DNA of 64,000 nucleotides from Chrysomallon squamiferum. Its lineage: Eukaryota; Animalia; Mollusca. Position numbers and translations under genes: made by a program. Below the pieces are notes generated by a model. That model had not been told where the DNA came from, ran no database searches, and saw only the letters and a program-made list of their open reading frames with translations. Shown here in pieces: positions 31,901 to 37,900 of this stretch. The stretch covers positions 10,726,001-10,790,000 of the forward strand of contig CM022669.1 of the NCBI GenBank assembly GCA_012295275.1, in the 5' to 3' direction. Position 1 is the stretch's first letter. Each line of letters begins with the position of its first letter.

Positions 31901-34900
31901 TAAACAGTCACTATTCTGATGTTCTGATGGTGAAAGGTCAGAATTTTGAATATTTGATTTTGTGAATAGTTTTGTACCAAAGGTTATAAATACGGAAAGA
32001 ACAGTTATGTCGATATGTGAAAAAATTTTGAAAGAATAATTTAATTATAACCAAAGGTTATAAATAATTATTCATTCTGTCGATATGTGAAAAAGGGTGT
32101 AGAATAATTTAAAATAATTTTATTTGGAACATTGTCTGCATGTGCAAAGGGTGTAGATTTTGATTTATTTGGAACATTGTTAATTTACTATATATATATA
32201 TATATTTTACATTTTTTGGCAAATTTAAAAACATGTATGATTATGAAGATTCTTACTTGAGTGGCATATTGGGAATATTTTCAAACAATCCGTCAAGTTT
32301 AGGATACGCTCTTTTATAAACAATGTCTTTGTATCGCTGCAGCAGAGCTTCCTGTAAACAATAATAACTGAAACAATGATAATGATGATGATGATAATGA
32401 TGATGATGTTTATGACTATGATAATGATAATGATGTTTATGACAGTGATAATGATGATGATAATGATGGGATTTAATTATAAACAACAATAATAACTGCA
32501 TTAAAATAAAGGACAGTGAAAAAAGAATACGATAGTATTAAAAGTAAAAGCACAGACAAAAACACAGATACAATAACAAGAAGGACAACATCAACAATAG
32601 CAACGTACAAAAAGTAAAACAGTTGTTATTAATACAGAGATTTGATAATTATTATACATTTTTGAACATACAGCTAATAACTTGTTAGCCTGAAAACGAA
32701 TGATATATAAAAATACTAGAAACGGTGAGTAGTTATGTACTCACGGAAGAGTTCAAATGGAATCGCGGTTTGTTACGCAACATTTTCAGAAACTCTCGTA
32801 TTGTCTTCGAAGATCCGAGTTTCTTGATAATCTGAATAAGGTAAAGTATAAAACCAAAACATCTGCCACAAATACCATTATTACAGAATTAACATCGACA
32901 ACACAATTAAACTATTCAATGAGAATTGTAATATTTATTCAGAATTATAATACTCAATGAGAACTGTAATACAGATATTACAGTTGGAGTCCTTTTTCAA
33001 TATTCTGCTACAGTCAGATTTCTAAACTCAGTAATAACATACTTTTCATAATATTTTACATCTGTCACTTAAACATATCCACACAGATAAGTTCGTGAAA
33101 AGATAAAGAATACAGGTTTTATTTTACATTTGTCTGATTTAATAATAGATATTCTAATGTTATTATATTATTGTTCTAAATGCTCGGGTTACCAATACCT
33201 TTTTCATCTTTTCGGATATTCGCTCTATTTCATCCAAGCCAAGCTGATGAACTTTCTCTGGACTGATATCTGCTGTGAGGTGCCATTTTAAAACGTCTTT
33301 ATAGTAATCACGTCCATTTTCCAAAGACCATAAACCCTCATATTTCCGGGTATACTTCATATATTTCTGCATTAATCGATATTATAAATACAATGTTGAA
33401 ATTACTGCCGTTGCTGCTGTTACTAGCATTAATACTACTACTACCACAACTCCTCCTCCTACTCCTACTTCTATTACTACAACTACTACTACGGCTACTA
33501 TACTATGAATGTTATTATTATTACTATTACTGCATAATATACGGTATATATACGCATAAACATATGTGCGCACGTGTATTTGTGTATGATGTCTGTCTGG
33601 TATGGTATGTTCCCAGAACTGGCAGTCTCGAGATTATGTAATCGGTGAGGTGTTATAATCCGCTTCCAGAAATGGGAAAACTGGCGTGAGCCATTAAGGC
33701 CAATTTAGAGGCATGAAGAACAGAGGGGGCGATTAACGAGATTAACTTTAATGAGCAGTGAAGACAGGAAATACTACCTATATAAATACTGTACAGTCAT
33801 GATGTTTGTTATGTTTGATTATGGCTGCGAAGGGAGAAATTTTGGATGGCAGAAAACCAGGTGCAGACCTCATACTTGATGGATATAGGTATGCACGGCG
33901 GATTAGTAACAAGAATGGTGCGGTACCATGGAGATGTTTGTATTCGAGGTGGTCAGGAGAGGTAAAGACCACATCCATTCCTTGGATGAGAGCGAAGTGG
34001 CTGTCCACCTACTGACCAACACCATGCGGAAGCGAGCGCGGGAGGAGCTGACCAGTATCCCAAAGATTTATGACGAGGAGAGGAAGAAGTTGTTGACCGG
34101 GTATGGAGACGCGACACCACAGGACATAGCTTCCAAGCTGAGTATGTTTGAGGGCTTCAAAACCAGCTTGTGCGACAGAGAGCGAAAAAGGTCCCGCAAA
34201 CTGGAACATTTCTTGCGTAGAGTGTGACTGATTGTCCTACAAATTGTGGACAAAATACAGTTTAACAAAAGTACATCAATTAACGTGATGGGCCATCAAT
34301 TAGTAAGGGTGAGAAATAAAATGCCAGAAATGGAACAACTGGTGTGTCCAGTTAAGATGTGTTATAATCTCACTGCCAGATTCGGGGATGCCTAAATCGG
34401 GAATAAACCCTCTGTTTATGTATTTCTATATGTCTGACTGTTCTGTCTGTCTGTACGTATGTATGTATTATTATATACATGCATATATGAATATATACAC
34501 TTACAGTGACTAAAAAATGTCGTAGTTTTCTGTACGCATACACTGCTTTCATTGCAGTCAATCTGCTCATACGCGTAAAGCGATTTCTGAAAACGTAATT
34601 AATAAGATTGTTTATTTCTGAAAACATTTTCAGTACCATACGAAAGGAAAAACTCAGAATGTCTGACAAAGTGTGTTGTCAAAATTCTAATTAGTACTGT
34701 CGTCTCCCCCTCTCTCTCTCTCTCTCTCTCTCTCTCTCTCTCTCTCTCTCTCTCTCTCTCTCTCTCTCTCTCTCTCTCTCTCTCTCTCTCTCTCTCTCTC
34801 TCTCTCTCTCTCTCTCTCTCTGTCTGTCTCTATTTTTGAGGCTTTCTGTCTAAATCTCTATTGATATGTTAGCCCGTCTTCCTTTCCATCACATCATATT

Positions 34901-37900
34901 AATATATCTATCACATATATGTGCATATTTATACAAACACACGCACACACACACACACACACCTCCGTATTTAGCACTCTCTCGTGGAACAAAATAAACA
35001 AATGTTTTCAGTGTATACCTACATCTGTACTCTTGTTAAGTTGGATTTATCTAGCTTGTCTTTGAATTGTTTATTGTATTCAGAATTCGTTTTGTCATTT
35101 AGCAATACATTCTCAATCGTTTTCGAAACATCTTCCTGTATTTATATAAAACAAAAAAAATGGTAGATAATTGATTTTTGATCAGGTTGGTTTCTTCACA
35201 TTTAAACACAGTTAATATAATTTTCTTTCAGTGGAAAATATATTTCATGGTACAAATTAAGGATTCGTTAAATAAAACAAAGTTGGTGGTAATGAAGTAA
35301 ATTATTAGAACTATAATTGTTGCGATCACCGACAACAGAAAACCCTTTTCCTCGTTTCTAAACACTTCCAAACAGTTGAGAAAATATTTTCTTTTTCTTT
35401 TGTGAAATCCTCGGTGTTATTACTAACGTGAACAATCTTTATTAAAAACAGAAGTTTGATTTTTACCACGGTGATCTTGTGTAGTGTGTGATTCTTCTTA
35501 ATAGCTGTTTCCATCAAACGAATCATTTCATCCACCTTAGTGAAATACGTATAAGTAATAAAGTAAGTAATTAAGTAATTAAATAAGTAAGTAAATAAAA
35601 TATGATGAAATAATTCAAAAATTATATATATAATTAAATTAACTACATATTTATGTAGTCTATTTTTCCGTATATCAGTTACACTTTAAAAATGATCCAT
35701 GAGCAGTGAGACAATTACTAAATTATAACATTATATATATTTAAATTTTATAATTTTAAGACGACAATATATATATATATCTTTTTGTTCATCCATCCAT
35801 CCATCCATACGTACGTACGTACAGAGATACATACATATGTATATAATTTATGTGTATATTTTGTTGTATAAGGTAATATTTCTTCTAAAGGTATTACCTG
35901 AACAGGTATTTTTCTAATGCGCCTAATAATATTTTTAAAATCGTTTTTGGTACTTGTTGGCATTTTACTTAAGAGATCTGGCCCACGAATACTATCAGAG
36001 TCAGTCAAAGGATTTAATGGCCCGTAACTGAAAAACAACACCAACGAAACCCATATATAATGCAGCTATATATATAAGTTTGTTTTTGTATGTAAATATT
36101 TATGCATGTATGTACGTATGTATGTAATAAAGAATATGTGTGCGAAGTGAAGTGAAAGAAATTAACGTGCTAATCAGAGCAAGCTGTTGTGAAGCACGTT
36201 TGAATATTCTCTGTCTTAAGTATGTCTCACCCGCAGTTTGCAAAACGCGAAGTGCGCAGACTCATGCTATCTGGCCAATCAGCGTGCTCCTCTCAGCATC
36301 ATTGTTTACCTGAGAATCGTTGTAGTGCCCTGACTAAAACTACACAGTTCATTTTAATGTGAGATGATGTACGAGATAAACTAATGTCACAACCGTTCTT
36401 CTGGTGTGTGGCCTGTCATGTCTATTCATGCTTACAGGAGAAAAACGACAATTTTGAGCTTTTTTTCTTTCTCTTATTGATTACGCAACCTTTATGAATG
36501 CAAGTTTCAGAAAAATGCCGAGAACAAGAAGAAAAAACTATTTTCTACTGTTTTTTTTTTGTTTTGTTTTTTTTTTTTTTTTTTTTTTTTCTTTTTTTTT
36601 GTTGAAGGATGAATATTTACTTGAAGGTTTACTCACAAGTCCCAAAATCAATTAAAAATATATATAATGAGTTGGTATGTTCCCAAAACTGGCAGTCTCC
36701 AGATTAGGTAAGCGGTGAGGTGTTCTAATCCGCTTCGAGAAATGGGAAAACTGACGTGAGCAATTAATGCCAATTTAGACTCATGAGGATTGCAAGAAAA
36801 TTAATGTTTGGAGACATGAAATTAATGTGATATCTCAGTAAAATCTGGAGACAGGAAATACTACCAATTTAGACGTGTGGGGTTAACGAGAACAATCAAG
36901 AGATGTATGAAGAGGGTAGCCAGAGTAGAGGTTGCAAGGAAATTAATGTTATAACGTAAGATTTGGAGACAGGAAATACTACCTATACAAATACTGTACA
37001 GTCATGATGTTTGTTATGTCTGATCATGGCTGCGAAGGAAGGAATTTCGTGTGTAAAGTGTAACTGAATGAGCTTTCAAATAGTGGACAAAATACTGTTT
37101 AACAAAAGTATATCAATTAAGGTGACGGAATACCAATTAGTAAGGGGGAGCAATAAACTGCCAGAAATAGAACAACTGGCGTGTCCAATTAAGGTGTGTT
37201 ATAATCTCACTGCCAGATTCGGGAATAAACCGATCGGTTAATATATCGCAAGTCAATGGACTCTTTTTTGGCCCATGCGACATGTGTCACCTTTTGTCAA
37301 AGCTCCTCAGAAATCATCGTGACGTAATGTCAGTACATATTTCACCGTGTACAAACATTATAATCTGACTACAATAAGACGGATATAACAAGCTCGGCTA
37401 GAAGAGATCGTTCTAGTTTACGCCGTATCTCCATGATTCTTGTTGCTTTTGGTACAGTTTTATTTCATCATTATTTTTCTTTTGTACAGATGGAAGATTA
37501 CTGACATTCAGTGATAAAAAGAAACAATATATTGTGCATTCTTCCAGTTATTAGTTTTCAGCCAGAATATATATATATATAAATTAATAATGATAATAAT
37601 AACACAAGATCACTTTATAAACTATTTTCTGTTTTCATGATGTAGTCGCTTTAAAACTGGAACATTTTATTCTACTATTGCTATGTCCTCCTGCGCCAGT
37701 GCGTTCCCGAATATTATCTATGCGCAGAGTCTATTCAGACATACATAAGATAGAGAATATTCAAAATCTTGAACTACATAGATACACAGAGAGGTATAGA
37801 GCGATTAAATTAGTATTAGCAGTTTCCCACTATAGACAGTTCGAGAACCCTGTCAGATGCCGCTGACGAGACTTGAACTAGTCGCACACATTATCAGTTA

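What the first reader, a model, noticed from the sequence alone, without database searches (positions are those of the whole stretch)
34505..36027. Exons diverge faster than adjacent introns between paralogs
Seen: exon 6 of B (EDVSKTIENVLLNDKTNSEYNKQFKDKLDKSNLTRVQ) and C (ESVKKDIEHLILNHTTPSQLSNGMKYMLDKFNLTKVQ) share only 18 of 37 residues by hand count. The abutting intron 5 (35136-35466 versus 50041-50369) is almost base-for-base identical. Exons 4 and 7 are similarly variable (A NLITYVSKIALNEAND, B NRFTRMSRLTAMKAVY, C NDIENESLLAITEAVE), while exons 5, 8 and 10 are nearly invariant. Known: exon-over-intron divergence is typical of venom and immune multigene families. Inference: diversifying selection on a recognition surface, or gene conversion that is selected against in those exons.
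Basis: partly seen in the sequence, partly recalled or inferred. Interest (0 to 1): 0.75.

Follow-up and report, generated by a model that had tools for sequence, protein, structure and literature searches.

The report
Patchwork copying between triplicated peptidase genes
Three neighbouring copies of a gene for a likely secreted zinc peptidase, in what is likely a mollusc, share near-identical patches that were likely copied between them, while three exons differ at about half their amino acids; this is a known pattern of gene-family evolution, and adaptive change in those exons is possible but not shown.

Summary
The numbers are right; the general claim is only partly right. The window holds three intact, tandem 17-exon DUF885 genes (A, B, C; minus strand), likely secreted zinc peptidases of a mollusc; B is spliced in RNA contigs. 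B and C share 18 of 37 residues in exon 6, while intron 5 matches at 323 of 329 bases. That intron lies in a 482-base block of near identity, best read as recent gene conversion, which stops 3 bases into exon 6. Gene-wide, exons are slightly more alike than introns, and intron flanks rise and fall with their exon, so divergence runs in blocks. Exons 4, 6 and 7 lie outside every block. Their dN/dS is about 1.5 (interval about 1-2.2) against 0.4 in conserved exons. Site tests for positive selection pass (p about 0.003) but fail once site-to-site rate variation is allowed (p 0.17). Exons 6-7 are also the most labile mature-protein segments across the family. No venom or immune role was shown. Side find: copy A lacks the catalytic-motif glutamate kept in 112 of 112 homologues, so it is likely a non-catalytic copy.

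The parts
28959..40604 (-). Gene B, 17 exons, 592 aa, DUF885 family, signal-peptide-like exon 1, intact HEGVPGHH and EGWGLYAE motifs
   Evidence: spliced RNA contigs in X7 and X8 carry its letters
44288..54675 (-). Gene C, 17 exons, 596 aa, intact HEGVPGHH motif
   Evidence: Pfam PF05960 on 6 of 16 exons scanned, 2 above the curated cut-off; exons 6 and 7 present in DNA runs X3 and X4
9608..25468 (-). Gene A, 17 exons, 587 aa, open frame, altered metal-binding motif
35898..36027 (-). B exon 4, variable (C 50711-50582, A 18533-18404)
   Evidence: identical in RNA contigs of X7 and X8
35467..35535 (-). B exon 5, near invariant (C 50438-50370, A 17877-17809)
35136..35466 (-). B intron 5, 323 of 329 aligned bases identical to C intron 5 (50041-50369), 81% to A
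35133..35614 (.). B-C block of near identity (C 50038-50517): end of intron 4, exon 5, intron 5 and 3 bases of exon 6; 10 mismatches and one 2-base gap in 482 bases; inferred recent conversion tract
   Evidence: score 326 against a maximum of 240 in 300 shuffles; differences listed
35023..35135 (-). B exon 6, variable (C 50040-49928, A 17465-17353)
   Evidence: no difference in contigs of X2 and X7
34505..34586 (-). B exon 7, variable (C 49527-49446, A 16955-16874)
33199..33366 (-). B exon 8, near invariant; the last 50 bases of intron 7 are identical in all three pairs
   Evidence: PF05960 E 2e-13 for the C copy
14059..14119 (-). A exon 12 with HIIVPGHN in place of HEGVPGHH
   Evidence: HE is kept in 112 of 112 homologues at that column
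55744..58457 (+). Inverted 3' fragment D (exons 14, 15, 16 and the tail of 17); exons 14 and 16 are closest to A/B, exon 15 closest to C
28332..28780 (-). Remnant of a C-like intron 16 and exon 17 start, downstream of B's A-like last exon

Best explanation
Three intact tandem DUF885 genes, likely secreted zinc peptidases, show blocks of near identity that likely come from repeated gene conversion between the copies, and exons 4, 6 and 7 lie outside these blocks and change amino acids about as fast as silent sites or somewhat faster, likely through a mix of loosened constraint and some selection for different substrates or partners. Shown: the gene models, the blocks, the switching of closest pair along the gene, splicing of B, and the rate contrast (dN/dS about 1.5 against 0.4). 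Inferred: conversion as the cause of the blocks; tracts seeded in long conserved stretches and stopping at indels, repeats or diverged exons; intron 5 looking frozen only because B and C exchanged it recently. Least certain (about 0.45): that selection, not just relaxation plus the mismatch barrier, keeps exons 4, 6 and 7 apart.
For: One tree for the whole gene fits far worse than per-exon branch lengths (2dlnL 315, 48 df). B is C-like in exons 1-3 and 11-12 and A-like in exons 14-17. Fragment D switches partner between exons 14, 15 and 16. 24 high-identity segments were listed over three pairs, 15 above the 95% shuffle maximum; none holds exon 4 or 7 and one holds 3 bases of exon 6. Synonymous divergence is low where amino-acid divergence is low: B-C 15/70 in exons 4, 6, 7 against 17/230 in exons 1-3, 5 and 8-13, p 0.002. 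Flank identity tracks exon identity (rho 0.67 over 45 non-independent exon-pair cases). Among 45 non-overlapping homologue pairs with similar exon 6+7 divergence, none is as alike in exons 5+10 or exon 8 as the window pairs (minima 0.24 and 0.16 against 0.04-0.09). Both copies exist in other DNA runs, and contigs over intron 5 have about twice the depth of most neighbours (weak, contig depth is no copy number). At least 144 changes in 108 codons left no stop, which random change did in 0.34% of 5000 trials, so the exons are still under some constraint. Precedent: passages in PMC3924837 on opsin genes.
Against: Only three full copies from one assembly; no close orthologues were found (best hits about 45% overall, at most 60% on exon 8), so the paralogue-against-orthologue test of conversion could not be run. 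Synonymous divergence in exons 5, 8 and 10 is only about 2-3 times lower than in 4, 6 and 7, so purifying selection also explains part of their sameness. dN/dS in exons 4, 6, 7 is not significantly above 1 (p 0.16), and these exons were picked after seeing the data. The site-model signal is as strong outside exons 4, 6 and 7 (2dlnL 13.0) and is lost with rate variation (p 0.17 and 0.25). Exon 4 and exon 11 divergence is ordinary for pairs matched on exons 6+7. Most segment ends fall in introns, not at exon borders.
Confidence: 0.72

Rival explanations
1. Strong diversifying selection on a recognition or specificity surface in exons 4, 6 and 7, as in venom or immune gene families, with selection actively purging conversions that cross these exons.
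For: dN exceeds dS in all 9 exon-pair cases but one (B-C exon 7). M2a beats M1a for these exons (p 0.003, half the sites at about 2.9), also with double-base changes allowed (p 0.008). Non-synonymous divergence exceeds synonymous plus intron 6 sites for B-C (p 0.015; intron alignment favours this result). The B-C block stops 3 bases into exon 6. Exon 7 net charge runs +3, +7, -2 in A, B, C. A DUF885 protein is abundant in a spider venom proteome (passage, PMC7682650), and one is listed among a snail's putative venom components (passages, PMC11359391).
Against: Not robust to rate variation (p 0.17). Intron 6 is not homogenised, so exon 6 is the edge of a diverged block, not an isolated peak. 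Residues conserved across the family are replaced differently in each copy (exon 4: 5, 7, 8 of 12 kept against a homologue median of 11; exon 6: 1, 4, 3 of 6 against 5), which fits loosening as well. No allelic variety was seen in B exons 4 and 6 in the few contigs listed. Tissue is unknown.
Confidence: 0.35
2. No adaptive story: exons 4, 6 and 7 encode a labile helical region with relaxed constraint, and once diverged they block conversion mechanically, so the contrast builds by itself.
For: Exons 6 and 7 are the most divergent mature segments in 34 independent close homologue pairs (0.31 each against 0.20 overall). M1a with rate variation fits these exons about as well as M2a, with 95% of sites neutral. 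Gene-wide dN/dS is already 0.85, and the clade has a long stem (1.15).
Against: Exon 4 is more conserved than average in those close pairs (0.15). There is no stop and no indel in these exons despite heavy change. Point estimates sit above 1 for each of the three exons (1.2, 1.8, 1.2).
Confidence: 0.4
3. Assembly or polishing artefact: reads from one copy overwrote intron 5 of the other, or B and C are two haplotypes placed in tandem.
For: No whole genome is held to cross-check; the region is rich in repeats.
Against: The two introns differ at 6 sites and a gap. Each copy's own exon 6 occurs in DNA runs (B in X2, C in X3), and intron 5 contigs are deeper than most neighbours in 4 of 4 DNA runs. 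B and C differ at 20% of residues and in intron lengths, far beyond alleles.
Confidence: 0.05
4. Intron 5 is held constant by selection on a functional element inside it.
For: Its first 74 unmasked bases are near identical in A too.
Against: The 3' half is diverged and gapped in A. The same near identity occurs in flanks of introns 7, 9, 11, 14 and 15 next to conserved exons, in pair-specific fashion. No RNA-family search was run on it.
Confidence: 0.05

Closest known systems
Primate red/green opsin genes: peak of divergence under gene conversion (PMC3924837, passages read)
   Same: Tandem paralogues; an intron homogenised while the abutting exon stays diverged in synonymous and non-synonymous sites.
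   Different: There, both flanking introns are homogenised and the selected residues are known. Here only intron 5 of one pair is, intron 6 is not, conserved exons are homogenised too, and no function is known.
Accelerated exon evolution in snake venom and serum-protein gene arrays (PMC6609765, passages read)
   Same: Tandem secreted-protein paralogues with KA/KS near or above 1 in some pairs.
   Different: Here the low intron divergence is local and pair-specific, not gene-wide; dN/dS above 1 is not significant; no venom gland link.
DUF885 / PF05960 family (solved: 3O0Y, 3IUK, 3U24)
   Same: Pfam hits in profile order along exons 8-17; motifs HExxPGHH and EGWxxYxE in B and C; the closest homologue (Patella, 45% to B) folds onto 3O0Y at TM 0.89, Z 43, rmsd 2.0 over 557 residues.
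   Different: The window's three copies form a long-branch clade inside the molluscan group, have lost family-conserved residues in exons 4 and 6, and A lacks the motif glutamate.
Channel-type zinc peptidases (M32 carboxypeptidases, M3 oligopeptidases, M2 ACE) and MATCAP
   Same: Distant fold likeness of the homologue model: MATCAP Z 14.4 (rmsd 4.7, 254 aligned), BsuCP Z 13.6 (rmsd 5.3, 336 aligned). DUF885 is placed in the Peptidase_MA clan (passage, PMC12572635).
   Different: About 10% identity; Z values near the range that helical folds can reach by arrangement alone; no activity for DUF885 was found in the papers searched.

Membership tests
DUF885 (PF05960) | Pfam profile match above the curated cut-off | tested here: met
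   C exons 8 and 16 each pass 32.4 bits alone; 4 more exons hit below it; 10 of 16 exons gave no hit
DUF885 (PF05960) | HExxPGHH and EGWxxYxE motifs | tested here: met
   B and C carry both; A keeps the second but has HIIVPGHN, so A is a member with an altered motif
DUF885 (PF05960) | DUF885 fold | tested here: inconclusive
   Shown for homologue P0166 only (pLDDT 95.5; 3O0Y TM 0.89); the window's spliced proteins were not folded
Zinc metallopeptidase (clan MA) | Metal binding and peptide cleavage | not testable with these tools
   Motif and distant fold likeness only
Paralogues under ectopic gene conversion | Clustered tracts of identity and changing closest pair along the gene | tested here: met
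Paralogues under ectopic gene conversion | Paralogues closer than orthologues inside tracts | not testable with these tools
   No close orthologue found
Opsin-type selected peak of divergence | Divergence confined to the exon with both flanking introns homogenised | tested here: not met
   B-C intron 5 is 98% alike but intron 6 is 76-81%
Opsin-type selected peak of divergence | Raised synonymous as well as non-synonymous divergence at the peak | tested here: met
   15/70 against 17/230, p 0.002
Venom or immune multigene family under diversifying selection | dN/dS robustly above 1 | tested here: inconclusive
   p 0.16 at exon level; site models p 0.003 without and 0.17 with rate variation
Venom or immune multigene family under diversifying selection | Expression in a venom gland or immune tissue | not testable with these tools
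   RNA runs X7 and X8 carry no tissue label in the output
Venom or immune multigene family under diversifying selection | High allelic polymorphism in the variable exons | tested here: inconclusive
   0-2 differences in the listed contigs over exons 4, 6, 7; contigs drop rare variants and the piece tables were cut

The most novel reading that the evidence does not exclude
A fast-evolving, lineage-specific branch of the uncharacterised DUF885 zinc-peptidase family is splitting into functionally different secreted copies under selection: exons 4, 6 and 7 set substrate or partner specificity and resist conversion, and copy A has become a catalytically dead binding or decoy protein. The array would then be a ready-made handle on what animal DUF885 proteins do.
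Probability: 0.25. Interest if true: 0.62.

Novelty: new member of a known kind. Interest (0 to 1): 0.36.

Why it matters
As a pattern it is known: conversion between tandem paralogues with exons that escape it. It warns against using an adjacent intron as a neutral clock, which is what made the contrast look extreme. The family is the more interesting part. DUF885 genes occur in several copies in many molluscs and no functional study turned up in the papers searched. Here three close copies differ in defined segments, and one lacks the likely catalytic glutamate, so enzyme activity and specificity can be tested by direct comparison.

Tried and rejected
No whole genome was held, so further paralogues elsewhere in the genome were not counted. 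A word-based protein search with exon 8 gave 2 hits at 45-48% among 6 candidates; the full HMMER scan gave at most 60% identity. The protein atlas gave no result. My first guess of an octopus gene was not supported: no paper holds DUF885 and octopus and no cephalopod is among the 120 listed homologues; I leave the host at 'likely mollusc'. I first thought exons 4 and 11 were unusually diverged for the family; at matched exon 6+7 divergence they are not (35, 29, 35 of 45 pairs are at least as diverged in exon 4; that matched set leans to old pairs). B as a simple unequal-crossover hybrid was considered: with C upstream and A downstream, a three-gene crossover product would be A-like at its 5' end, whereas B is C-like there (own reasoning). 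Variable sites could not be mapped to surface or channel, as only secondary structure was returned. The careful tree did not finish; the quick tree of 56 of 115 rows is used. Teshima and Innan 2008 was not held and is cited only through PMC3924837. The scan's earlier findings returned nothing in 3 look-ups. No RNA-family search, GENECONV or codeml run was made; my own codon models stand in, without a parametric bootstrap. Supplements were not read.
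Full report
What is there. A masked self-comparison shows three same-strand repeats of a gene unit and an inverted partial fourth. Exon models built from the sequence give three open frames on the minus strand, each with 17 exons and GT-AG introns: A 25468-9608 (587 aa), B 40604-28959 (592 aa), C 54675-44288 (596 aa). Exon sizes match except a 6-base shorter exon 11 in A and different last exons. Exon 1 reads like a signal peptide (hydrophobic, by eye; no predictor was run). 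An RNA contig of run X7 carries B exons 2-6 in order with 0-2 differences per exon, and one of X8 carries exons 3-11 with joints that skip the modelled introns. Both RNA runs are from one study.

Family. Six of 16 exons of C hit Pfam DUF885 in profile order, two above the cut-off. The closest full-length homologues are molluscan at 41-45% identity. In a quick tree of 56 rows the three copies form one clade (support 100) on a long stem (1.15) inside a molluscan group (support 99), so the host is likely a mollusc. A model of the best homologue (pLDDT 95.5) matches bacterial DUF885 structures (3O0Y TM 0.89) and, distantly, MATCAP and M32/M3/M2 zinc peptidases (Z 10-14). A passage in PMC12572635 places DUF885 in the Peptidase_MA clan. 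Peptidase activity is inferred, not shown.

The observation. The generalisation does not. Gene-wide, exons are slightly more alike than alignable introns in all three pairs. Intron 5 is 81% alike between A and the others, and intron 6 is 76-81% alike between B and C. Flanks follow their exons: 0.69 beside exons 4, 6, 7 (exons 0.72) and 0.92 beside exons 5, 8, 10, 14 (exons 0.95). Only in the B-C pair are all three variable exons below their flanks.

Conversion. The B-C match runs from 35614 to 35133, 482 bases with 10 mismatches and one 2-base gap, and scores above all 300 shuffles. It begins near an indel in intron 4 and ends 3 bases into exon 6. Of 24 listed segments, 15 pass the 95% shuffle maximum. 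Each contains exon sequence; none contains exon 4 or 7. The closest pair changes along the gene: B-C in exons 1-3 and 11-12, A-C in exons 8 and 13, A-B in exons 14-17. Per-exon branch lengths beat a single tree by 2dlnL 315 on 48 df. Fragment D is 98-99% like A in exons 14 and 16 but closest to C in exon 15 (66 of 68). B keeps a remnant of a C-like last exon behind its A-like one. Synonymous divergence drops with amino-acid divergence (p 0.002 for B-C), which purifying selection on protein alone would not give. Exons 5 and 10 are of average variability in the family (0.21 and 0.20 against 0.20 in 34 close pairs), yet near invariant here, below all 45 matched pairs. Contigs from four DNA runs hold copy-specific pieces and show deeper cover over intron 5, which weighs against an assembly error, though contig depth is a weak measure.

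Selection. With my own codon models (per-exon branch lengths, three sequences), dN/dS is about 1.5 for exons 4, 6, 7 (grid interval 1-2.2, p 0.16 against 1), 0.4 for exons 5, 8, 10, 12, 14 (p 0.009) and 0.85 overall. M2a beats M1a for these exons (p 0.003), for the whole gene (p 0.002) and for the gene without them (p 0.0015). Allowing double-base changes keeps the signal (p 0.008, 0.018). Allowing site-to-site rate variation, which conversion inside exons would create, removes it (p 0.17, 0.25). The exons were chosen after the fact. They are not free of constraint: at least 144 changes left no stop, seen in 0.34% of 5000 random trials. Exons 6 and 7 are the family's most labile mature segments. 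They map to two short helices, a loop and the start of a long helix in the homologue model, away in sequence from the metal motif in exons 12-14. Family-conserved residues in exons 4 and 6 are replaced differently in each copy. The fair reading is amino-acid change at the silent rate or somewhat faster; I put adaptive divergence at about 0.45.

How it most likely works. Inferred steps: conversion tracts start in long identical stretches, mostly conserved exons, and run into the introns until an indel, repeat or diverged exon stops them. Exons 4, 6 and 7 diverged early, fell below the identity needed and now keep the older divergence of the copies (dS about 0.16-0.46). A recent B-C tract reset exon 5 and intron 5, which produces the sharp step at the exon 6 acceptor. 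That step is expected both if selection rejects longer tracts and if mismatches simply stop them (own knowledge), so it does not decide between the two.

Comparison with what is known. The nearest precedent is the opsin case described in PMC3924837 (passages); the window meets its raised-dS feature but not homogenisation on both sides. Venom-type accelerated evolution (PMC6609765, passages) is a looser match. DUF885 appears in a spider venom proteome (PMC7682650, one passage), a snail's putative venom list (PMC11359391, two passages) and a table of horizontally acquired genes in Dictyostelium (PMC3188802, one passage). These are leads only. Searches for DUF885 (17 papers, 16 listed), PF05960 (2), DUF885 with metallopeptidase (4), DUF885 with octopus (0) and a six-term mollusc query (0) showed no evolutionary or functional study of molluscan DUF885 arrays in titles and abstract openings; subscription journals are mostly not covered.

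Side finding. A reads HIIVPGHN where B and C read HEGVPGHH. HE is present in 112 of 112 homologues at that column and the last His in 112 of 112. Six of the 9 A-B base differences in exon 12 fall in these three codons, and exon 11 of A is also far diverged. That the Glu is the catalytic base is recalled from HExxH peptidases. A is likely non-catalytic yet intact; its expression was not tested.

Verdict. A real, partly overstated observation, mostly explained by patchy gene conversion, with fast but not provably adaptive change in three exons of an uncharacterised peptidase-like family. New member of a known kind; interest 0.36.

Noticed in passing
window 14059-14119 (-), gene A exon 12: Metal-motif change HEGVPGHH to HIIVPGHN in an otherwise intact copy; HE is kept in 112 of 112 homologues. 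Likely a pseudo-enzyme.
   Followed up: partly
window 55744-58457 (+): Inverted, truncated fourth copy (exons 14-16 and tail of 17), head to head with gene C; mosaic of A/B-like and C-like exons.
   Followed up: partly
window 28332-28780: Decayed C-like intron 16 and exon 17 start behind B's A-like last exon, suggesting that B's 3' end was replaced.
   Followed up: partly
window 12631-12881: 4.2 tandem copies of a 60-base unit holding the exon 15 acceptor and first exon bases of gene A; possible alternative acceptors.
   Followed up: no
window 19375-24277: 51 copies of a 98-base tandem unit fill intron 2 of gene A.
   Followed up: no
window 39685-40282 and 53770-54367; 41489-42522 and 54651-55704: B and C share a 598-base intron 1 insertion at 97.8%; upstream of B lies an extra copy of C's upstream region with a broken exon 1 start.
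   Followed up: no
window 1783-3003 (-): Intronless rhodopsin-family GPCR ORF, 406 aa stop to stop, PF00001 E 1e-20.
   Followed up: partly
window 7897-8958 (+): 353-aa ORF with several hydrophobic stretches, GPCR-like by eye, no Pfam hit at E 0.001.
   Followed up: no
window 60608-62977 (-): Exons of a beta-lactamase-related protein gene; PF00144 E 2e-16 on 62486-62977.
   Followed up: partly
window 33600-34400, 36670-37230 and 26790-28080: Fragments of a high-copy dispersed repeat in B introns 7 and 3 and between A and B; very high contig depth over the intron 3 copy.
   Followed up: no
gene C exons 14 and 16 (46375-46311, 45242-45073): C departs from family-conserved residues next to the third metal-ligand region (GWKQYAE; ACSGK for ACAYK), possibly a changed pocket.
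   Followed up: no
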